Shown: one piece after another, positions 52,983-63,596 of the stretch
How the letters are laid out: every line of letters starts with the position of its first letter
Numbering within the stretch: the stretch's first letter is position 1
IMG/VR virus record: IMGVR_UViG_3300031813_000004
Coordinates: 32,001 to 96,000 of that record
DNA: 64,000 nt
Source of the DNA: a virus
Lineage: Duplodnaviria > Caudoviricetes
Reading direction: 5' to 3' (one strand)
The notes under the pieces: generated by a model
Databases searched by the model: none
The model's input: the letters and a program-made list of their open reading frames with translations, nothing else
Told to the model about the DNA's origin: nothing
Position numbers and translations under genes: made by a program

Positions 52983-53174
52983 TTACCCCTTCATTTTATC
53001 ATCCATAATACGCTGCTTATCTTTTTCTAAACTAGACTTCCATTTAATAAGTCTATAAAATCTTTCTACTGGCATACTCATAATTTCTAAATAACTTGAA
53101 CCAGTTAATTCTTTACAAGTAAAAATATTTTCTTCTAAATCTTTTTTATATTGATCTATTTTATCATCCTGCAT
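52983..53174 (-). CDS. Baseplate hub assembly chaperone (gp51-like)
   Basis: SYLEIMSMPV.RF motif; follows gp26-like gene. Confidence 0.6.
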   Translation of the reverse strand: MQDDKIDQYKKDLEENIFTCKELTGSSYLEIMSMPVERFYRLIKWKSSLEKDKQRIMDDKMKG

Positions 53175-53958
53175 ATACCATACGAAAAAAGTTTTCCACT
53201 AAGTCCACATTAATCATTTCATCATGACCGCAATGTTTGCAAGAAGACCTCATCCTCAAGTTAACACAATATTTTCCAAAATATTCCGAATATTGTTTAT
53301 TAATTTCTTTCCTATCTTTAGCAGGAAGACTTCTATATGCGTCAATAATATCATTTCGGTCATCATATATAATAGATTCAGATTTGGCATTTGTTTCCTG
53401 TTCAAATCTATCAATGATTAAAGTTGAAGTTAATAAATCTATATTAGCTGAAGCCATAGCTGAATAATTTTTCAATGCTGAAACTTCATCAAATAATGTA
53501 GGTTGTTTAATATAAGCAAAAACACCTTTTGACCAAGGTAAAGCAACTTTAACTCTTTTTTCAATTATATTATCTTCACTAGGATAAACTTCATAACTAA
53601 ACATTTCTGAAGCTTTAACTGTGATTTGATATTCTTTTTTACAAGACTCACAGTTAACTTCATAATTTCTAATATCTTCATATGTTATATGATACAATCC
53701 ATATAACAAAGCTTCTCTATCTTTAATTGTAACTTTTTCTAAAAAGGATTTAAAATCAGTAATATCTTCTGGTTTTTTAATTGTTAATTCATAAATACAT
53801 TGATTCAAATGTTCTGTCACTTTTAGGGGAGTTAACATACTCCCTTTCATAGCTTCTTCTTCACTTACATTTAAAGAACGTAAAGTGAAAGACCTCTTGG
53901 TTTGAGGAGTGATTACTTCGTATTCTGGATACTTGAGATTGAATCCTTTGAATGGCAT
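53164..53958 (-). CDS. Baseplate hub assembly protein (gp26-like)
   Basis: P.YEV..P......R.L.V.EE, DRE.LL, CESC and CKHCG. Confidence 0.75.
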   Translation of the reverse strand: MPFKGFNLKYPEYEVITPQTKRSFTLRSLNVSEEEAMKGSMLTPLKVTEHLNQCIYELTIKKPEDITDFKSFLEKVTIKDREALLYGLYHITYEDIRNYEVNCESCKKEYQITVKASEMFSYEVYPSEDNIIEKRVKVALPWSKGVFAYIKQPTLFDEVSALKNYSAMASANIDLLTSTLIIDRFEQETNAKSESIIYDDRNDIIDAYRSLPAKDRKEINKQYSEYFGKYCVNLRMRSSCKHCGHDEMINVDLVENFFRMVYAG

Positions 53959-53984
53959 TTTTATTTCCTTTCTCTTTTCGAGGG

Positions 53985-54662
53985 TTACCTGCTAGAATTC
54001 ATTGCTTTTTCTAATTTAAGTATTCTTTTTCTAATTTTTTCTTTACACGACACAGGATTATTTGTTTTATTACAATCATTATAATGACTTTTTAATTGAG
54101 TAATTTGTAATTTAGCAGCGTTAATTTTAAATTGTTTTAAACATTTTTCTCTTTCAATTCCAGTTTTACCTTTACAAGCTTTAGCAGCTTTTGAAAAATA
54201 ATTTTTATAAATTCTATATGCTGCATATAATGCTGCTGCAACTACAACACCAACGGCTATACCTTTTTCTACATTAGATATTTTATGTTTAACTTTTGCA
54301 TTAATAGGTGCATCAATTATTTTATGAGGTCTTGCTTTGGTTGGAGGATCAACATTCATTATATCTGGTCGTTTTACAGTATATGTAGCATCAACAGCGT
54401 TAGCTTTACTTTTTGAATAATTATTTTTTTGATATTTCTCACCGTTTGCTTCTATTAAATTTTCATATATCATAATTTGTTTATTAGATATATTTAAATT
54501 AGATTCAAAAAATAAAGATATAGTTTGTTTATAATCTAGATTTTTAATCCATTCTCTAAATTCTTTTCTTTCTTCTAATGTGGTAACTTCTTTAAAATTT
54601 TTATTGAATGATTCATCAATAAGGTATTGTTTACATACAATTTCTAAATCAAATTTTTCCAT
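53985..54662 (-). CDS. TM plus Cys-hairpin paralog 4
   Basis: GIAVGVVVAAALYAAYRIY then C-x10-C-x22-C-x8-C. Confidence 0.7.
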   Translation of the reverse strand: MEKFDLEIVCKQYLIDESFNKNFKEVTTLEERKEFREWIKNLDYKQTISLFFESNLNISNKQIMIYENLIEANGEKYQKNNYSKSKANAVDATYTVKRPDIMNVDPPTKARPHKIIDAPINAKVKHKISNVEKGIAVGVVVAAALYAAYRIYKNYFSKAAKACKGKTGIEREKCLKQFKINAAKLQITQLKSHYNDCNKTNNPVSCKEKIRKRILKLEKAMNSSR

Positions 54663-54677
54663 TATTGATTCCTCATT

Positions 54678-55550
54678 CTATATTTTATTTTGTAATTTAT
54701 TAATTTTCTTAATAATATTCTGTTTACATTTATTAGGATCTTTGACTGAGTTACAGGAACTCATTCCTGATTTTAATTGACCTATTTGAGATTGTATAGC
54801 AGCCCTTTTAAAATTATACATGCATTGTTTCTTTTCTGGTCCTGAGAATTTAGAACAAGACCTAGCTGCTTTACTTAATTTATCTCTATATATTTTAGTA
54901 GCTGCTAATGCAATTAAAGATACAATAACAGCAGCACCTAATCCTTTTCCTAATGGAGTTCTAACAAATCTATTAACAGATGCAACTCCATTCATCGCAG
55001 CAGTTCTTCCTGCTTTTAATGAAGCCATTACTTTTCCTGGAGCTGCTTTAATTTGCCCAGGTATATCTTTAACAGTTTGTACATAACCTTTAGCTGGTCT
55101 CATCATATGAGCAGTTATAGCCATATTACCAACTTTAGCTGCTGCACCTAAAGCTTTACTTCCAGCACTTTCTTCATCATCTTCATAATCATTATATCTA
55201 CCACGTTCTACAATATAACTCATTGTAGAAGCTGAAGATGATAACCCAATTTCATTTAAGGATCCAACTTCAACAATACATTGTTTAATCTCTTTATCAA
55301 TATTTTTATCTAAATTAATAGATTCTTTTAATGATTTAAAAAGTTTTATTTGATTATCATGATTATATCTAGTTTCAGGAAATTTACCTTCCTGTAAAAT
55401 AGATATTATTTCATAATCTGAAGCCTCAATCATGATATATTTTTCAGCTAGAGATTTATCAGTTTTATTTAAATTAGATTCATTATGGATCATTTCATTA
55501 ATTGTTTGTCTAGCAAATAAAAGAAATAAAACTGAGTCTTTAATATTCAT
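54678..55550 (-). CDS. TM plus Cys-hairpin paralog 3
   Basis: EASDYE leader, TM helix, C-x10-C-x22-C-x8-C. Confidence 0.72.
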   Translation of the reverse strand: MNIKDSVLFLLFARQTINEMIHNESNLNKTDKSLAEKYIMIEASDYEIISILQEGKFPETRYNHDNQIKLFKSLKESINLDKNIDKEIKQCIVEVGSLNEIGLSSSASTMSYIVERGRYNDYEDDEESAGSKALGAAAKVGNMAITAHMMRPAKGYVQTVKDIPGQIKAAPGKVMASLKAGRTAAMNGVASVNRFVRTPLGKGLGAAVIVSLIALAATKIYRDKLSKAARSCSKFSGPEKKQCMYNFKRAAIQSQIGQLKSGMSSCNSVKDPNKCKQNIIKKINKLQNKI

Positions 55551-55554
55551 TATA

Positions 55555-56361
55555 TTACCTCATCTCACTGAGTTTATTTTCTAATTTAAGAATTTTAACT
55601 TTAATTACATTTTCACATTTTTGTTTATTTTCTTTACTAGAACAAGTAATCATACCTTGTCTTAAAGTTTGAATTTGTTTTTGAATCGCATTAATCTTAA
55701 ATTTTTTAATACAATTTATTTTTTCCGGACCTTTAAATTTGCCACATTGTTTTGATACTTCAGCAAAATTCTTTTCATAAACAACTATTGCTGCATATAT
55801 TACTAAAGCCGCAGTTAAAGCTGCACCTATTTTTTTTCCATTTGGTGTTTTAAGATATGACCCTAAATTAGATAAACCTTTTTGCGCATATAACTTACCT
55901 GTAGTATATAAATCTTTTCCTGCTGTAGATGCAGCTCCACCTACAATACCACCAGCAACCATAAGTCCATATTTCTTTTTATAATTTTCAGGTTTTTTAT
56001 CTTTCTTTTCATTTAAAAATATTTTTAATAAATCATTTGATGATTCTTTTAAAACATGTACTTCTTGTATAACACTTACTAATGTTTCTTTTCCTAAATA
56101 TTTATATAAGTTATCAAAGTCTTCTATAATTAATGATTTAAATGATTTTAAAAGTTCTACTTCCTTCAAGGAGTTATACTTTTCTATAGGATAATTTCCG
56201 GTTAAAGCCAGAGTTAGAAGTTCATAATCGGATGCCTCAGAAAGTATATAGTCGATGGACAATTTTTTAGCTTGGTCATTTAAATGACTCGTATTGAGAA
56301 ACTCTGAGAGTGTTCTCCTTAATGCTAAAAAGAATGTCAAAGAATTTTTAATATTTTTCAT
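55555..56361 (-). CDS. TM plus Cys-hairpin paralog 2
   Basis: True start at 56361 (AAGGAG SD; MKNIKNSLTFF aligns with paralogs); EASDYE; four-Cys tail. Confidence 0.72.
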   Translation of the reverse strand: MKNIKNSLTFFLALRRTLSEFLNTSHLNDQAKKLSIDYILSEASDYELLTLALTGNYPIEKYNSLKEVELLKSFKSLIIEDFDNLYKYLGKETLVSVIQEVHVLKESSNDLLKIFLNEKKDKKPENYKKKYGLMVAGGIVGGAASTAGKDLYTTGKLYAQKGLSNLGSYLKTPNGKKIGAALTAALVIYAAIVVYEKNFAEVSKQCGKFKGPEKINCIKKFKINAIQKQIQTLRQGMITCSSKENKQKCENVIKVKILKLENKLSEMR

Positions 56362-56382
56362 CGAAAAGTATAACTCCTTGAA
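56165..56382. repeat. Perfect 20-bp inverted repeat (56165-56184 and 56363-56382)
   Basis: TTCAAGGAGTTATACTTTTC and GAAAAGTATAACTCCTTGAA. Confidence 0.9.
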
Positions 56383-56395
56383 TCTGTATAATTTA

Positions 56396-57418
56396 TTAAA
56401 TTTTAGCTTGAAGCTTAGAAATCTTAGCTTGAATAGAAGCTTTGCATTTAGCAGGATCCTTGGTAGAAGCACAACCAGAGAACCCAGCCCTTAACTGAGC
56501 AATCTGAGCCTGGATTGCAGCCTTCTTAAACTTGTTAAGGCAGTCTTGTCTTTCTGGACCAGTCTTACCTTTGCAAGCTTTTGCACCTGCACTGAATTTT
56601 GCTTTATAAACTTTATAAGCTGCATATGCAACAAGCGAAGCTAAAAGAGCGCCACCAATATAACGACCTTTTTTAGAATTAGCGAATGCAACAACTGCAG
56701 ATGCACCATTCTGAGCAGCAGCTTTACCACTAGCAACAGTGTTACCTGCTTTCATTCTTAATTTTTCACCACTAACAGTTGCAGAAGAAACATTATGTGC
56801 AGTTTCTGGATTTCTAGTACTAGCAGTTCCAAAAACACCTTTACCAAAATCTTTAGCTTTACCAGGTGCACTTCTAACAGCAGATGCTGCAGATTTAGCT
56901 TTACCAGGAATACTTCTAATAGCACCACCAACATGAGCAGGTGCATTCTTAACTGCTTTACCAGCATAACCAGCTCTAGCTTTCATTCTATTACCAAAGT
57001 TAGCAGCAGTGTGCCCTTTTAATTTTCCAGCTGGAACTAAGTCATACGGAAGTTCTAACAGGAAATTAGCAATAGGAGCTGCCGAAGAAAGACCATATTC
57101 ACTAAGAGCAGTAATATCACTAACAAAGTCAGTGGTAACATCTTCAGAAAGATATTGGCTGAAAGTGTCAAAGTTTTCAATAATGCAAGTTCTAACATCT
57201 TCAAAAAGAGCAGCTTCTTTTTCACTATTGTACTTCTCATCAGGAAGTTCACCTTCAACAGCAAGACTCATAACTTCATAATCTGAAGCCTCATTCATAA
57301 TGAAGTTTTTGTTTTGGATTTTTTCAATCTTAGTAGACTCTTCATTCAGGTCAACGAATTCACACATAGTCTTTCTAAGTGTGGTTAAGAAAATTAAAGA
57401 ATCAGATACATTACTCAT
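56396..57418 (-). CDS. TM plus Cys-hairpin paralog 1
   Basis: Acidic EASDYE leader, Ala/Lys-rich middle, TM helix, four-Cys tail; AGGAGG SD. Confidence 0.75.
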   Translation of the reverse strand: MSNVSDSLIFLTTLRKTMCEFVDLNEESTKIEKIQNKNFIMNEASDYEVMSLAVEGELPDEKYNSEKEAALFEDVRTCIIENFDTFSQYLSEDVTTDFVSDITALSEYGLSSAAPIANFLLELPYDLVPAGKLKGHTAANFGNRMKARAGYAGKAVKNAPAHVGGAIRSIPGKAKSAASAVRSAPGKAKDFGKGVFGTASTRNPETAHNVSSATVSGEKLRMKAGNTVASGKAAAQNGASAVVAFANSKKGRYIGGALLASLVAYAAYKVYKAKFSAGAKACKGKTGPERQDCLNKFKKAAIQAQIAQLRAGFSGCASTKDPAKCKASIQAKISKLQAKI

Positions 57419-57477
57419 ATTGTTATTCCTCCTAGGTTTATTTGCTTCACTCCATTTATGTATGTGAAGGTTTAATG

Positions 57478-58200
57478 TTATTTTGGTTCTTGATAATTTT
57501 GAACAGTATTCTTAGCAGCAGCAAACAGTGAAGCATAATTTTGGCAATTTGCTAACACCCAAGGTTCATGCCAAATATAGTCAACATTGAATTCAATTTC
57601 AACATCTAATTTTGCAACAGATTCAACATCTCCATGATATAAATCTTGTGGATCTTTAGTCGGGAAAACACCATCATAACATGCAAAATATTCTACTCTT
57701 TGTGCATCAGGAGCAGTAGTCCAGTAATATAAAGTACCTGCATAATCTTTCTTAGTGTATCCACCACCATCTGTAGTAGCAGCTAAATTAGTAGTACCGG
57801 TTCTGTAGTCACGAATCATTTTAACCCAACCATGCATAATATCAAGGATAGGTTCACTCCAGAATTCAATGAATTTTAATGATACAGAGTTCTGGTAATC
57901 AATGTTACCAGGTACTGCCCATTTAACTCCACCAAGCCCAGTATATTCAACTTTCTGTAAAGTACCACCGGGAGGAGTTACAGAAGTACATGTTGCAGCT
58001 AATACATTTTGAATGTCTGCTGTAGATGAAAGACCACTATTTCCCAATTTACTGTAATTTACTATCTGTGGGGGTAGATAAGAAAACCAGCAAAAGTGAT
58101 ACCCAGAGAGGTATGGTTCCGCAGTTCCTACATTAGTTCCACCGAATTTTCTTGTTAATATATTTTCTTGTAATGCTGCAAACGAAGTCTTCATACCCAT
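57478..58200 (-). CDS. Tail tube protein (T4 gp19-like)
   Basis: SVTPPG.TL......G.GG....PG...Y...V...F.E.......W, GVFP..D....Y.......L...IEF..D. Confidence 0.75.
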   Translation of the reverse strand: MGMKTSFAALQENILTRKFGGTNVGTAEPYLSGYHFCWFSYLPPQIVNYSKLGNSGLSSTADIQNVLAATCTSVTPPGGTLQKVEYTGLGGVKWAVPGNIDYQNSVSLKFIEFWSEPILDIMHGWVKMIRDYRTGTTNLAATTDGGGYTKKDYAGTLYYWTTAPDAQRVEYFACYDGVFPTKDPQDLYHGDVESVAKLDVEIEFNVDYIWHEPWVLANCQNYASLFAAAKNTVQNYQEPK

Positions 58201-58201
58201 C

Positions 58202-59731
58202 TTATTTATCCTCCAATAACTTATTTATCATACTAAATTTAATACTTCCACAATCCCATATAATAAAGTATCCTTCTTGTCTTCTAATAATATGTTCGGG
58301 TATTTCTTTAGGATCTAGTTCTGTTTTTCGTAATGAAAATCTATGTATTCTTTTATATCCTTTATTATACCAATAATTAATAGAAGTATTATGTTTAAAT
58401 TCAAAACCTAATTTATAATATAAATCACCATCAGACCATCTTCTGTCAGCATAACTAAATATTTCAGACCAAATATAATTTTTTTTAAAATAACTAAGAA
58501 ATTTACTAGCTATACCAGGAATTTGATAATTAGAATTAGAACAAAATCTATTTAATTCCCATATATCATCTTTATGTTTAGATCCTTTAGAAATATTACC
58601 ATGACCAAAAGTCATAACTGAAATCAATTCTTCATTATAAAAAGCTCCTAATTTAATAACAGAGCTATCTTTACCTTGAATATGAAATTTATCCAAAAAT
58701 TCATTTTTAATTGTTGGAGAAATTTCTTTAATAATACATTTTCTTGCATAAATTTTTAATTGATTATTCGATTTAAATATTTGTCTTAATCTACTTTTAA
58801 CAATATCTTTTTTAAATAACCATTCATCTTCAAATATATGTATTAATCTAATATTTTGATCATTACAACTAATAGTTTTATCTAAATGATAATGAGGATT
58901 TTTAGATGGATCTGAATCAGTTTCATCCGAGTGTCTATAAAAACCATCAAATTCTATAGCTATATTTTTATCTGGGATATAAATATCAATTTCTCTAGGA
59001 GATATAATTTTTCTGTTTCTCCTAATAATATTTGATATACCCAATTCAGTTAAAAATTCAACAATTTCATCTTCAGGTTTGGATTGAGTATTACTAGGAA
59101 AACAAATTGGACATTTTTTCCATTGTTGAACATAATTCCAAATTGATTTAAATTCATTATTACAAATTAAACATCTAAAAGTAGCTTCTTCAGTTGCATC
59201 TTTATATTCAGAAATCATTTCTAAATTTTTATTTTTTAATATATCAAATACAACATTATTTATATGATTTTTTTGCCTAGTATCATGTCTTTTTTTTATA
59301 GCACTTTCAGTTTGCCCAGGATTATAAACACCATTTTTTTCAAAGCATTTATCTCTAGATTTTTGTTTGATTTTATCTGTTGCATTAGCATTTTCATTAC
59401 CATGTCTTTCTAAATTAGTTTTAGCTCTTTTTTGTTTAACTAAATTCTCATCACATTTAGATCTAGTTTCTTTAAACTTAACAATTCTTTCTTCACTACC
59501 TTGTGAACATTTTGCTCCACAATGTTTTTGATAACCTAAATAAACACCAAGAAAAGGTGTTGGTTCATTGCATAAAGGGCATATCTCTTCATCAGGTTTC
59601 TTTAAATATTTATCATAATAATCTTTAGCACTTATTTTATGAGCTAAAGTAACATGACAAAAACCTTTAGTTGACTTTATTTCTTTACCACAAATTTCAC
59701 ATTTAATATTCAATTCGTTAGACCCGTTCAT
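58202..59731 (-). mobile_element. Hef/Vsr-like homing endonuclease with Zn fingers and C-terminal GNAT-like domain
   Basis: C2H2 finger CEICG..H....H, EIDIYIP...IAIEFDG.Y.H PD-(D/E)XK-like core, WELNRFC..GIASK..YADRRWS.G.LY..LGF. Confidence 0.75.
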
Positions 59732-59760
59732 TTAAATATCCTTTTTATAAAAATAAACCT

Positions 59761-59780
59761 CATTTTAATTTTGTTCTTAA
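59761..59780 (-). promoter_or_regulatory. Putative late promoter (AGAACA box)
   Basis: TTAAGAACAAAATTAAAATG at head of the minus-strand tail operon. Confidence 0.45.
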
Positions 59781-59802
59781 TTATCTTAAAGATGACTAAG
59801 AA

Positions 59803-59838
59803 TTTAAGGATTCATTCCCTTGCTATATATATTAATTA
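59803..59838 (+). promoter_or_regulatory. Bipartite promoter-like motif, copy 2
   Basis: TTTAAGGATTC-N9-CTATATATATTAATTA upstream of the + strand accessory operon. Confidence 0.65.
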
Positions 59839-59880
59839 ATAAGATATTAATTCAATTAAATTTTATAAGGGGGATTTAAT

Positions 59881-60159
59881 ATGAAACATATGTTGAAAAA
59901 TATCACAGGAGAGAAAAAAGAAATGATTGATAACATTATCAAGAAAAATAACAACCCTCATATCATTAATGAATATGTAAAATTTAACAAATTTAATGAT
60001 GAAATGGTAGTTACGATAGATGGTTGTTTTAATAGTACTGACCTTCGTTGTATTGCAGATATAATGGATGTACTCAATAAAGAAAATACAAAGGAGATAA
60101 GCAATGAAAAGACTACTTTTAATAGCATACGTAATCTTAACAGCATTAATCTTTTATAG
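59881..60159 (+). CDS. Hypothetical protein
   Basis: AAGGGGG SD, ORF. Confidence 0.5.
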   Translation: MKHMLKNITGEKKEMIDNIIKKNNNPHIINEYVKFNKFNDEMVVTIDGCFNSTDLRCIADIMDVLNKENTKEISNEKTTFNSIRNLNSINLL

Positions 60160-60334
60160 TGCTAAACTTGTAATCGAACCTTTAGCAGTAACCCACGACA
60201 TTTATGAAACTCTTAACATTCAAATGTGGGTGACTCTAATAATCATATTCTCAATCGTAACAATCTGGAATCGTTTGGGGGTATTAATAAATGATCAAAA
60301 ATGTCAAAAACATAATAGTTATAGAGATTACTAA
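60104..60334 (+). CDS. Small two-TM membrane protein
   Basis: AAGGAG SD, two hydrophobic stretches. Confidence 0.55.
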   Translation: MKRLLLIAYVILTALIFYSAKLVIEPLAVTHDIYETLNIQMWVTLIIIFSIVTIWNRLGVLINDQKCQKHNSYRDY

Positions 60335-60425
60335 AAAATTAAAAACAATTGCCATTACTTGATGAAATAAAAATACCAATTTTAATTACAATGGAAGAAT
60401 GGTTGAATCAGGGTGGGGAATAAAT

Positions 60426-60457
60426 AAAAATTGAGGCTTATATAGCTCAATTTTTTT
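60426..60457 (+). terminator. Intrinsic terminator-like hairpin
   Basis: AAAAATTGAG...CTCAATTTTTTT. Confidence 0.5.
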
Positions 60458-60481
60458 AAACTTAATAGATAAAGGATAATT

Positions 60482-61198
60482 ATGAAAGAACAAAATACTC
60501 TAACTGACCAATTTAGAATTGTATGGGAAGATCTGTTAAATGAAATGGAACAAGAAAAAATTTTTGATGGAGATTTTTTTAATCGAGCCGCTGCCTGGGA
60601 AATGTATAATATGTTAGTAATGTTTTACAATGGTCCTAAAAGATATTATCATACATTAAAACATATATTAGATATGATTAAAAATTATTATCAATATTAT
60701 AAATCTAATTCAGTATATAATCATAGTATTATAATTTTTTCAATTATTTTTCATGATGCTATTTATACTGAACATATAAATTCAGAACAGGCAAGTGCTT
60801 TATTATTATTTCAGTGTTGTGATATATTAGGATTAGCAAAAAGTTTCAAAGAACTAGTATTTAGAATTATATTAAATACCAAACATTCTGGATATAATAA
60901 ATTAAAACAAGATTTAGATAGAAGAATTGTAGATTTAGATTTAATGGTATTAGCATCAGATAAAGATGAGTATAATGAATATTGTAAATTAATTAAAATG
61001 GAATATATTCATTTAGGCGAATACATGTATTTAAAAGGTAGAAAAAAATTTTTAGAAAAAATGTTAAATAGAGAAAGAATATTTTATAATGATATGTTTA
61101 CTAATTTAGAAATAAAAGCTAAAAATAATATGAATGAAGAATTAAAATTAATAATTGGAGAATTTGTAGATTATTCATTAAAAAATGCATTAAAATAA
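60482..61198 (+). CDS. HD-superfamily phosphohydrolase
   Basis: RYYHTLKHI, FHDAIY, SE..SA, D.DL..L, Y...I..EY, GR..FL. Confidence 0.8.
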   Translation: MKEQNTLTDQFRIVWEDLLNEMEQEKIFDGDFFNRAAAWEMYNMLVMFYNGPKRYYHTLKHILDMIKNYYQYYKSNSVYNHSIIIFSIIFHDAIYTEHINSEQASALLLFQCCDILGLAKSFKELVFRIILNTKHSGYNKLKQDLDRRIVDLDLMVLASDKDEYNEYCKLIKMEYIHLGEYMYLKGRKKFLEKMLNRERIFYNDMFTNLEIKAKNNMNEELKLIIGEFVDYSLKNALK

Positions 61199-62779: not shown

Positions 62780-63541
62780 ATGTTTAGAAAACTGGTAATT
62801 TTGATGGGATTAACTTTCATGTTAAGTGGTATTAGTTATGGTGGTCAAACAGCTTGTCCTCAACATTTTGCTGATGGGCAAGCTCAGGATTTAATTTCAT
62901 CTCTTTTACCAAGAACTAAAGAATTATGTTTTTCTGAATTTGCTGTTAAACATTCAGGAGTTACAAGAACTGCACTTTATGCCTCTGAACATTTAACTAA
63001 AGACCGTTTGGTTAAAGCTAAATCAGTGCCGAGGCATGATGCATTTCATCCTGAGCAAAAACTTCTTTTAAATGAGAGAGCTGAATTAAGAGATTATACA
63101 AGATCAGGATATGATCGTGGTCATGTTGCACCTGACGCAGATTTTTCAACTCCTGAATTTCAACTTGAATGTTTTAGTTTAGCAAATATGGTACCTCAAA
63201 ATCCAACCAATAACAGAGGGGTTTGGTCAAAGATTGAAGCAGCAGTTAGAAATTATACCAAGAGTACCAACAATAGTGTCTATGTTGTAACTGGTTCAAT
63301 CTATGATGCAAATCCAAAGAAAATAGGAAATGTATCAGTTCCTACTAAATTATTTAAAGCTATGTATGATGAAAATCGCAAAATGGCCGGTGCTTATTTA
63401 GTTGATAATGCATCTAAAACAGAAGTACAACAAATTTCACTTTATACATTAAAACAAATGAGTGGTATTGATGTATTCCCATCTCTACCTGATGTAATTA
63501 AAAATACATGTATGAGACTTCCAACCCCGCATGGTAATTAA
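62780..63541 (+). CDS. Secreted DNA/RNA non-specific endonuclease (NucA/EndA family)
   Basis: Signal peptide; SGYDRGHVAP, NMVPQ...NR..W...E; AAGGAG SD before ATG 62780. Confidence 0.9.
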   Translation: MFRKLVILMGLTFMLSGISYGGQTACPQHFADGQAQDLISSLLPRTKELCFSEFAVKHSGVTRTALYASEHLTKDRLVKAKSVPRHDAFHPEQKLLLNERAELRDYTRSGYDRGHVAPDADFSTPEFQLECFSLANMVPQNPTNNRGVWSKIEAAVRNYTKSTNNSVYVVTGSIYDANPKKIGNVSVPTKLFKAMYDENRKMAGAYLVDNASKTEVQQISLYTLKQMSGIDVFPSLPDVIKNTCMRLPTPHGN

Positions 63542-63547
63542 AAACTA

Positions 63548-63596
63548 AAATTTAGGGAGAGTTAATAATAATAAAAAATTAACTCTCCCTAAATTT
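63548..63596 (+). terminator. Perfect 19-bp intergenic stem-loop
   Basis: AAATTTAGGGAGAGTTAAT...ATTAACTCTCCCTAAATTT. Confidence 0.55.

What the first reader, a model, noticed from the sequence alone, without database searches (positions are those of the whole stretch)
56165..56382. Gene whose coding sequence carries a perfect 20-nt antisense copy of its own ribosome-binding site
Seen: on the mRNA, UUCAAGGAGUUAUACUUUUC (SD through to 1 nt before AUG 56361) is exactly complementary to GAAAAGUAUAACUCCUUGAA about 180 nt downstream, which encodes EKYNSLK. That stretch uses codons rare here (AAG, AAC, TCC, TTG). The paralog at 56396-57418 encodes EKYNS with different codons. The enclosed segment is GC-elevated with further stems (GTCATTTAAATGAC). 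Inference: a long-range translational OFF switch, timer or coupling device setting stoichiometry among paralogs. Alternatively, a 178-bp invertible segment that would flip the start codon away from the SD.
Basis: partly seen in the sequence, partly recalled or inferred. Interest (0 to 1): 0.72.

Follow-up and report, generated by a model that had tools for sequence, protein, structure and literature searches.

The report
Phage mRNA helix hiding its ribosome site
A tail-module gene of an uncultivated giant phage keeps its ribosome-binding site base-paired with its own codons 60-66, and its only known relative keeps the same pairing through matching changes on both sides, so this is very probably a built-in brake on that gene's translation.

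Summary
A perfect 20-nt inverted repeat (56165-56184 / 56363-56382; 23 nt with one mismatch) pairs the Shine-Dalgarno site, spacer and the AU of the start codon of gene 55555-56361 (minus strand) with its own codons 60-66 (EKYNSLK).

It is not chance. Among 179 genes of the 150-kb phage record the next-longest pairing of this kind is 12 nt.

The only sampled ortholog (44% protein identity, same gene order) has the helix at the same place. Three pairs changed on both sides, two changed to G·U, and none is broken. One compensated change is a synonymous Leu codon switch (UUG to CUC).

Once the downstream arm is transcribed, the predicted cost of opening the ribosome landing site rises from about 7-9 to about 18 kcal/mol in both phages. 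Neighbouring genes need 5-8.

None of 76 other family members, including the tandem paralogs, has the helix.

Best reading: a selected long-range mRNA helix that throttles translation of this one paralog, probably limiting it to nascent transcripts.

An invertible DNA segment is unlikely. I found no recombinase and no inverted copies, and the flipped state has no usable start.

The scan's earlier notes describe similar self-antisense start sites on other DNA (e1-5766810, e1-2317068); I did not check them. No expression data exist.

The parts
56363..56382 (-). 5' arm of the helix. It is the ribosome-binding region of the gene: UUCAAGGAGUUAUACUUUUC, with SD AAGGAG at 56379-56374. It ends 1 nt before the AUG.
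   Evidence: SD use in this phage: 145 of 179 genes carry an SD-like 4-mer upstream, against a 12% background.
56359..56361 (-). Start codon AUG. Its A and U pair with codon 59 (AUA) after a single G x A mismatch, in the 23-nt form of the repeat.
   Evidence: The start is fixed by the N-terminal alignment with the paralogs.
56165..56184 (-). 3' arm (the anti-SD). It is codons 60-66, GAA AAG UAU AAC UCC UUG AA(G) = EKYNSLK, nt +178..+197 of the coding sequence.
   Evidence: Rare codons. Homologous arm in the ortholog.
56185..56362 (-). The 178-nt segment enclosed by the helix: the last spacer base, the AUG and codons 1-59. GC3 is raised here, and there are small local stems that show no covariation.
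56337..56346 (-). Weaker local alternative partner of the SD. Codons 6-9 (AAUUCUUUGA, again Asn-Ser-Leu) pair with UCAAGGAGUU (10 bp, 2 of them G·U) in predicted folds of the nascent transcript. This is not conserved in the ortholog.
55555..56361 (-). The regulated gene (P0001, 268 aa). It is the second of four tandem paralogs: an EASDYE-type N-domain, a linker, a hydrophobic helix and a 4-Cys C-terminal domain. They lie between the tail tube and baseplate hub genes.
56396..57418 (-). Upstream paralog (P0002, 340 aa). Its stop codon (56398-56396) lies 13 nt upstream of the base of the helix. It has a strong, unsequestered SD of its own.

Best explanation
The two arms form a long-range helix in the mRNA: 20 perfect base pairs, or 22 pairs with one mismatch, closing a 172-178-nt loop. 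The helix buries the Shine-Dalgarno sequence, the spacer and part of the start codon of gene 55555-56361 against the gene's own codons 60-66. It acts in cis as a translational throttle on this one member of a four-paralog tail-module gene set.

Shown here: the pairing exists, it is far beyond chance, it dominates the predicted folds, and it is kept in the only known ortholog through changes on both sides.

Inferred: at equilibrium the start site is essentially closed. Ribosomes can therefore load only in the short interval after the RBS has been transcribed and before the anti-SD arm, about 180-200 nt later, emerges. After that, they can load only while a ribosome crossing codons 59-66 holds the helix open. 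When the ribosome train lapses, the mRNA shuts. The expected result is a small yield per transcript for this paralog compared with its neighbours.
For: (1) The repeat is real and unique. It is 20 nt, against a maximum of 12 nt for 178 other genes of the same record. Shuffles expect 0.01 matches.

(2) Both the MFE and the centroid fold of the 271-nt mRNA segment contain the helix; z = -4.0 against shuffles.

(3) The ortholog is L004:4001-4825, at 44% identity. It is the best hit of P0001 among the L004 paralogs (L004:3215 and L004:4833 score far lower; the reverse BLAST was not run), and the gene order tube-P2-P1-P3-P4-hub is the same. Its RBS GGGGGUUAUACUUU pairs with G AAG UAU AAC CCU C at the homologous codons 57-62, in both MFE and centroid.

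(4) RNAalifold picks the helix as the consensus structure: 15 pairs, of which 3 are compensated on both sides (C-G to G-C, and A-U to G-C twice), 2 changed to G·U, and 0 are broken. The Leu codon changed synonymously from UUG to CUC, and both changed bases are matched by changes in the RBS.

(5) The 10-nt spacer GUUAUACUUU is identical in the two phages. The RBS regions of the neighbouring orthologous paralogs show no such conservation.

(6) The cost of opening -18..+13 jumps when the 3' arm is included. In the window it goes from 8.8-9.6 to about 18 kcal/mol. In L004 it goes from 6.4-7.2 to 16-18. Six neighbouring genes need 5.3-8.0.

(7) The arm uses rare codons.

(8) The helix is specific to this orthogroup. 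None of 76 other family genes in 62 IMG/VR loci has it.

(9) Precedents exist for SD sequestration by intramolecular pairing: T4 genes e, soc, 49 and I-TevI (PMC3014915), and the icaR 5'/3' UTR pairing (PMC3868564).
Against: There are no transcript, structure-probing or expression data, so everything about function is inferred.

Only two independent lineages could be compared, so the covariation rests on one pair of sequences. L009 and L010 are identical to L004 in this stretch.

No relief mechanism is visible. Unlike the T4 cases, no transcript that contains the RBS and the gene can lack the inhibitory arm. The upstream ORF ends 13-14 nt before the helix.

In the window phage the nascent RBS is already fairly closed by a local hairpin (opening cost 8.8-10.8 kcal/mol). 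This weakens a simple 'free while nascent' timer.

In L004 the fold of the whole segment is not more stable than shuffles (z = -0.8); only the position-specific pairing is notable there.
Confidence: 0.7

Rival explanations
1. RNase III target. The perfect 20-23-bp duplex formed by the two arms is cut by the host double-strand-specific RNase. The cut separates the SD from the coding sequence and severs the ORF at codons 60-66. This would inactivate the mRNA for this paralog and process the long tail-operon transcript. It could act together with SD occlusion, as in icaR.
For: The uninterrupted helix is 20 bp in the window phage, about the two helical turns that RNase III needs (established knowledge). 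In icaR the SD/anti-SD duplex both blocks initiation and creates an RNase III substrate (PMC3868564).
Against: In the ortholog the helix is only 14-15 bp, with two G·U pairs and a bulge. What is conserved is coverage of the SD, not a duplex of 20 bp or more. Cleavage cannot be tested here.
Confidence: 0.12
2. Translational coupling. The helix keeps the RBS closed until ribosomes finishing the upstream paralog (56396-57418) open it, which would tie the output of the two paralogs together.
For: The genes are adjacent (34-nt gap) and on the same strand. The stop-to-helix distance is similar in both phages (13 and 14 nt). Sequestered RBSs opened by upstream translation are a classical coupling device, as in MS2 coat-replicase (established knowledge).
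Against: A ribosome with the stop codon in its A site unwinds mRNA only about 5-7 nt beyond the stop and covers about 10 nt (established knowledge). The main helix starts 13-14 nt downstream, so it would be left intact. The inhibitory arm lies downstream, inside the regulated gene, and not in the upstream ORF.
Confidence: 0.1
3. Invertible DNA segment (a partly intergenic inverton). A site-specific recombinase flips the 178 bp between the repeats, turning the start codon and the first 59 codons away from the SD, as a phase-variable OFF switch.
For: The geometry fits: 20-23-bp inverted repeats flanking about 175 bp, which resembles known invertons. Inversions that lie within genes or overlap a gene boundary are documented in bacteria (10.1101/2023.03.11.532203).
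Against: No serine (PF00239) or tyrosine (PF00589) recombinase was found in the 150-kb record or in the ortholog's 143-kb record. Both records are only about half complete, and a host enzyme is not excluded.

All assemblies seen have the ON orientation. Three independent contigs of the sister lineage agree. The exact protein is recorded on three contigs. Junctions specific to the inverted state are absent from IMG/VR.

The flipped state has no start codon behind the SD and no alternative N-terminus (read from the sequence).

The repeat always covers the SD even though the SD sequence itself changed. In the ortholog, two of the 15 helix positions are G·U pairs, which are mismatches in DNA, and a further C x U mismatch interrupts the helix. 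The arm has no internal dyad of the kind seen in hix- or lox-type sites.
Confidence: 0.06
4. Mutational accident. A template-switch or quasi-palindrome event copied the reverse complement of the coding stretch into the intergenic region, by chance creating an SD, and the repeat has no selected function.
For: Template switching can create perfect inverted copies of nearby sequence (established knowledge). The repeat is perfect in this lineage.
Against: Pairing at the homologous place survives 56% protein divergence, with three double compensatory changes and an otherwise unconserved intergenic region. The coding arm uses rare codons, which a copy taken from coding sequence into the spacer would not explain. 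The same protein is seen on three contigs, and the ortholog's helix is seen in three assemblies, which rules out an assembly artefact.
Confidence: 0.03

Closest known systems
RBS-sequestering mRNA structures of phage T4 late and homing-endonuclease genes (e, soc, 49, I-TevI; mobE of Aeh1), reviewed in PMC3014915
   Same: It is a phage mRNA in which the SD and/or AUG lies in an intramolecular helix that lowers 30S binding. It is a purely cis-acting, sequence-encoded brake.
   Different: In T4 the inhibitory arm lies just upstream and forms a short local hairpin. Late transcripts that start inside the hairpin lack that arm and are translated. Here the inhibitory arm is 178 nt downstream, inside the gene's own coding sequence, so every translatable transcript carries it. 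The helix is 20 perfect bp, and no promoter-based relief is possible.
icaR mRNA of Staphylococcus aureus: a 3'-UTR UCCCCUG motif pairs with the SD region (PMC3868564)
   Same: It is a long-range pairing within one mRNA between the SD and a distant C/U-rich anti-SD. It blocks the initiation complex, and the duplex is a possible RNase III substrate.
   Different: In icaR the anti-SD lies in the 3' UTR, free of coding constraint. Here it is inside the ORF (codons 60-66), so translating ribosomes must melt it on each passage, and it must co-evolve with a conserved protein motif (K-Y-N).
Maturation (A-protein) gene of RNA phage MS2: a long-distance interaction closes the start site, and translation occurs only on nascent or unfolded RNA (established knowledge, not re-read here)
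   Same: The start site is closed at equilibrium by a long-distance pairing. The expected result is translation limited to a kinetic window, giving a low yield of a virion protein that is needed in few copies.
   Different: In MS2 the complementary sequence is upstream, in the 5' leader of an RNA genome. Here it is downstream, in the ORF of an mRNA from a dsDNA jumbo phage. The kinetic window is inferred, not shown.
Invertons, including intragenic and partly intergenic ones (10.1101/2023.03.11.532203)
   Same: A pair of inverted repeats of about 20 bp brackets a short segment that overlaps a gene start.
   Different: There is no recombinase, no inverted copies and no functional flipped state, and the ortholog has RNA-only (G·U) pairs. 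It resembles an inverton in geometry only.

Membership tests
cis-acting RBS-sequestering mRNA helices (T4 e/soc/49/I-TevI, icaR, MS2 A-gene type) | The helix includes the Shine-Dalgarno sequence and/or the start codon. | tested here: met
   The 5' arm is SD AAGGAG plus the spacer up to -2. The extension pairs the A and U of the AUG. In L004 the arm covers GGGGG and the spacer.
cis-acting RBS-sequestering mRNA helices (T4 e/soc/49/I-TevI, icaR, MS2 A-gene type) | The helix is thermodynamically dominant and makes the RBS inaccessible. | tested here: met
   It is present in the MFE and centroid folds of both phages. The opening cost of -18..+13 is about 18 kcal/mol, against 5-8 for neighbours. 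This is prediction only.
cis-acting RBS-sequestering mRNA helices (T4 e/soc/49/I-TevI, icaR, MS2 A-gene type) | The pairing is maintained in evolution (covariation). | tested here: met
   Three compensatory pairs, 2 pairs changed to G·U and 0 broken, in 15 consensus pairs. Only two independent lineages were available.
cis-acting RBS-sequestering mRNA helices (T4 e/soc/49/I-TevI, icaR, MS2 A-gene type) | Measured reduction of 30S binding or translation, reversed by disrupting the pairing. | not testable with these tools
   This needs toeprinting or a reporter assay.
T4-type promoter-relieved RBS hairpins specifically | The inhibitory arm lies upstream of an internal (late) promoter, so a shorter transcript escapes repression. 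| tested here: not met
   The inhibitory arm is downstream, at +178..+197 of the ORF. No transcript encoding the protein can lack it.
Invertons / site-specific DNA inversion switches | Inverted repeats flank the invertible segment. | tested here: met
   Arms of 20-23 bp flank 172-178 bp.
Invertons / site-specific DNA inversion switches | A serine or tyrosine recombinase is encoded nearby or in the same genome. | tested here: not met
   No PF00239 or PF00589 match in the 150-kb record or in the 143-kb record of the ortholog. Both records are about 46-48% complete, so absence from the whole genome is not proven.
Invertons / site-specific DNA inversion switches | Both orientations are found in sequence data. 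| tested here: inconclusive
   Only the ON orientation appears in assembled contigs. Junctions specific to the inverted state are absent from IMG/VR. Raw reads could not be examined.
RNase III processing sites | A duplex of about two helical turns (about 20 bp or more). | tested here: inconclusive
   Met in the window phage (20-23 bp). Not met in the ortholog (14-15 bp with G·U pairs and a bulge). Cleavage is untestable here.
Translational coupling through an RBS helix opened by upstream translation | Ribosomes on the upstream ORF traverse or reach one arm of the helix. | tested here: not met
   The upstream stop codon ends 13 nt (window) or 14 nt (L004) before the first pair of the main helix. 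The partner arm lies in the downstream gene.
Any Rfam family | A covariance-model match. | tested here: not met
   No relevant hit at E <= 1 in 53000-60500.

The most novel reading that the evidence does not exclude
The helix is a single-use kinetic timer in a dsDNA jumbo phage. The gene can be initiated only on the nascent transcript, or while a preceding ribosome is melting codons 59-66. Each mRNA would then deliver a small, roughly fixed number of copies of this one paralog and afterwards lock itself for good. This would be a hard-wired way of setting subunit ratios among four paralogous membrane-helix proteins of the tail or injection apparatus. It would also explain why the anti-SD sits inside the ORF, where ribosome traffic itself is the key. 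If the scan's similar unchecked cases on other DNA hold up, 'self-antisense start sites inside the ORF' could be a recurrent regulatory device of large phages.
Probability: 0.3. Interest if true: 0.65.

Novelty: new variant of a known kind. Interest (0 to 1): 0.5.

Why it matters
Sequestration of the SD by mRNA structure is textbook. The documented cases, however, are mostly local hairpins, or pairings with untranslated or upstream sequence that an alternative promoter or upstream translation can relieve.

Here the anti-SD is a perfect 20-mer inside the regulated gene's own reading frame. It is tied to a conserved protein motif and co-evolves with the RBS. That makes the ribosome's own passage the only obvious way to open the helix.

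If confirmed, this would be a clean natural example of translation limited by co-transcriptional folding. It would show how a giant phage sets different outputs for near-identical tandem paralogs transcribed together.

It is also a useful caution for inverton-prediction pipelines. Conserved inverted repeats of about 20 bp that bracket a gene start can be RNA elements rather than DNA switches.

Tried and rejected
(1) Close DNA relatives. There was no blastn hit in the phage collection. There was no exact 20-mer and no close protein relative in IMG/VR with the single protein as query. Relatives came only from alignment-based scans.

The three contigs that encode the exact protein, and the ENA relative P0006, could therefore not be fetched.

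(3) L009 and L010 turned out to be identical to L004 in this stretch. They add assemblies, not lineages.

(4) A family-wide search of 78 EASDYE-type genes for the same RBS:K-Y-N pairing found nothing beyond the two orthologs. The other 11-nt runs are A/T-rich and are not at the homologous place.

(5) Rfam gave no hit. The promoter and terminator scan gave nothing informative at the site, and the helix is not followed by a U-tract.

(6) A frameshift fusion of the upstream paralog to this gene was considered, because this gene's frame is open for 37 codons upstream, in the +1 frame, over an A AAA A run. It was rejected because the ortholog has an in-frame TAG directly before its ATG.

(7) A shared recombinase site was considered, because a second repeat with a similar core (ATTCAGGAGTTAC, 62952/63137) has similar spacing. 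It is only 82% complementary, lies inside a nuclease gene, and is among 58 such weak repeats in the window. I take it as chance.

(8) A decoy or second copy of either arm elsewhere in the 150-kb record was sought. None was found with up to 4 mismatches.

(9) PHROGs and Pfam gave no family for the four paralogs.

Full report
**What is there.** The window is bases 32001-96000 of a 150,156-bp IMG/VR virus record. CheckV puts it at 48% complete, so the genome is probably about 300 kb. It is about 27% G+C.

The finding lies in a minus-strand tail module:
- an unassigned 509-aa gene (58202-59731);
- a tail-tube-like gene (57478-58200);
- four tandem paralogs: P0002 at 56396-57418, P0001 at 55555-56361, P0003 at 54678-55550 and P0004 at 53985-54662;
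- a T4-type baseplate hub gene (53164-53958).

The paralogs share a hydrophobic helix and a four-Cys C-terminal domain. Three of them also share an EASDYE-type N-domain. No Pfam or PHROG family matches them.

TTCAAGGAGTTATACTTTTC at 56165-56184 (+) is exactly reverse-complementary to 56363-56382. With one mismatch the repeat is 23 nt long.

On the mRNA the upstream arm is the RBS of P0001. The SD AAGGAG is at 56379-56374, followed by a 12-nt spacer and the AUG at 56361. The downstream arm is codons 60-66, GAA AAG UAU AAC UCC UUG AA(G) = EKYNSLK, at nt +178..+197. The extension pairs the A and U of the AUG with codon 59.

The start codon is secure, because the N-termini of the three EASDYE paralogs align from residue 1.

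SD use is the rule in this phage. 145 of 179 genes have an SD-like 4-mer upstream, against a 12% background. GGAG-to-start spacing is mostly 5-8 nt, and 12 nt lies in the upper tail.

**It is not chance or an artefact.**
- Shuffles expect 0.01 matches of this 20-mer, even allowing 3 mismatches.
- I scanned the longest perfect complement between -30..+3 and the same gene's +10..+400 in every gene of the 150-kb record. It is typically 6-8 nt and at most 12 for 178 genes. For P0001 it is 20.
- The exact protein is recorded on three contigs, the ORF is intact, and the sister lineage shows the homologous helix in three separate assemblies. A mis-assembly is therefore excluded.
- The arm's codons are rare: AAG 0.14, AAC 0.10, UCC 0.03, UUG 0.09. 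Only 0.05% of the codon-usage-weighted probability of encoding EKYNSLK falls on encodings this unlikely or less. The caveat is that the first 270 nt of the gene have a generally raised GC3.

**Comparative evidence.** Alignment-based scans of IMG/VR found one ortholog, L004:4001-4825, on the 143-kb record IMGVR_UViG_3300040758_000214. It is 44% identical to P0001 and is P0001's best hit among the L004 paralogs (the reverse BLAST was not run). The gene order is the same: tube 76%, P0002 57%, P0001 44%, P0003 47%, hub 71%. Two metagenome contigs (L009, L010) are identical to L004 across this stretch.

In L004 the RBS region GGGCGGGGGUUAUACUUU pairs with G AAG UAU AAC CCU CUC (codons 57-62) at the homologous place. 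The pairing is 11 perfect bp, or 14-15 counting G·U, and it appears in both the MFE and the centroid fold.

RNAalifold on the two sequences returns this helix as the consensus structure. Of 15 pairs, 3 changed on both sides (C-G to G-C, and A-U to G-C twice), 2 changed on one side to G·U, and none is broken.

Two of the compensated positions lie in a Leu codon that changed synonymously (UUG to CUC). The third goes with a Ser-to-Pro replacement (UCC to CCU). The SD itself changed from AAGGAG to GGGGG and remains covered by the helix.

The centre of the helix (UUAUACUU: AAGUAUAA) is pinned by the K-Y-N motif, which is conserved across the whole family. This explains why 10 nt of the RBS spacer are identical in the two phages, while the RBS regions of the neighbouring orthologous paralogs are not conserved.

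**Specificity.** A broader scan recovered 62 IMG/VR loci holding 80 distinct EASDYE-type genes, of which 78 were scanned. Apart from P0001 and its ortholog, none pairs its RBS with its own K-Y-N codons. The tandem paralogs in the window, L004 and L005 do not either. All other family members are as distant from P0001 as its own paralogs, at 33% identity or less. The helix is therefore a property of this orthogroup and is present in both sampled lineages.

**Energetics.** The predicted cost of opening -18..+13 depends on transcript length:
- Window phage: 8.8-9.6 kcal/mol for transcripts ending at +160, +175 and +185, and about 18 once +200 is included.
- L004: 6.4-7.2 kcal/mol, rising to 16-18.
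- Six neighbouring genes: 5.3-8.0 kcal/mol.

At equilibrium the start site is therefore effectively closed.

In the window phage the nascent RNA also has a weaker local hairpin. The SD pairs with codons 6-9 (AAUUCUUUGA, again Asn-Ser-Leu), and the AUG sits in a small apical stem. This local hairpin is not conserved in L004.

**Mechanism.** I take as shown that the pairing is selected and that it covers the RBS. I infer that it acts as a translational throttle specific to this paralog.

The upstream gene stops 13 nt (window) or 14 nt (L004) before the first pair of the helix. From what is known of the ribosome's footprint and helicase site, a terminating ribosome abuts the helix but does not open it. 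Classical coupling is therefore disfavoured.

The inhibitory arm is downstream, so promoter-based relief of the T4 type (PMC3014915) is impossible. What remains is kinetic control: initiation on the nascent transcript before the arm is made, then maintenance by ribosomes crossing codons 59-66, then irreversible closure. This is the logic known for the MS2 maturation gene (established knowledge).

RNase III cleavage of the 20-bp duplex may add to the effect, as in icaR (PMC3868564). However, the shorter, wobble-containing helix of the ortholog suggests that duplex length is not what selection keeps.

**The DNA-inversion alternative.** The geometry resembles an inverton (10.1101/2023.03.11.532203). 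Against it:
- neither phage record encodes a serine or tyrosine recombinase, although both records are only about half complete;
- only one orientation is seen in the contigs;
- the flipped state puts no start codon behind the SD and removes the first 59 codons;
- two pairs in the ortholog are G·U.

**Limits.**
- Only two lineages could be compared.
- There are no reads, transcripts or experiments.

**Earlier notes of this scan.** These are unchecked AI notes. They report the paralog family on this genome (e1-5761226, e1-5761235, e1-5761222). On other DNA they report a homing-endonuclease gene of an Erwinia jumbo phage with an antisense copy of its own RBS about 580 nt into its ORF (e1-5766810), and a 1.1-kb mRNA-closing helix (e1-2317068). 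I did not test those. If they hold, the device may recur.

**Verdict.** This is a real, selected, long-range SD-sequestering mRNA helix. It is a new variant of a well-known kind of control. Its unusual features are a perfect 20-bp duplex and an anti-SD placed inside the regulated ORF. Interest is moderate, at 0.5.

Noticed in passing
window 56337-56346 with 56372-56381 (minus strand): The same SD has a second, weaker partner. Codons 6-9 (AAUUCUUUGA, again Asn-Ser-Leu) pair with UCAAGGAGUU (10 bp, 2 of them G·U), and the AUG sits in a small apical stem. This local hairpin dominates predicted folds of the nascent RNA. It is not conserved in L004.
   Followed up: partly
window 53985-57418, and 62 IMG/VR loci (L004-L072): There is a large uncharacterised family: 80 distinct EASDYE-type N-domain proteins with a hydrophobic helix and a 4-Cys C-terminal domain. 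They usually occur as 2-4 tandem paralogs between the tail tube and baseplate hub genes of AT-rich large phages, and have no Pfam or PHROG family. Other readers of this scan have also noted it.
   Followed up: partly
window 56362-56472 (minus strand): The P0001 reading frame stays open for 37 codons upstream of its ATG (GTG at 56472). It overlaps the end of P0002 in the +1 frame, across an A AAA A run. This is not conserved: L004 has a TAG directly before its ATG. It is probably chance.
   Followed up: yes
window 62952-62973 / 63137-63158: A second inverted repeat has a similar core (ATTCAGGAGTTAC) and similar spacing (163 nt). It lies inside a gene for a DNA/RNA non-specific endonuclease-like protein (DRGH motif). 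It is only 82% complementary and is probably chance.
   Followed up: partly
window 63548-63596: A perfect 19-bp hairpin with an 11-nt loop lies directly after the stop of the nuclease-like gene. It is a likely transcription terminator.
   Followed up: no
window 58202-59731 (minus strand): The 509-aa gene just upstream of the tail-tube gene, where a sheath gene might be expected, matches PHROGs labelled homing or HNH endonuclease (E 5e-108 and 9e-91). It also matches the Pfam Mom family only marginally (27.8 bits against a 27.1 cut-off). The labels look doubtful for a gene in this position.
   Followed up: no
window 55555-57418 and 53164-53958: GC3 is raised (0.23-0.37) in the first 90-270 nt of P0001, P0002 and the hub gene. 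Further into the genes many blocks fall to 0.03-0.13. I have no explanation for this.
   Followed up: no
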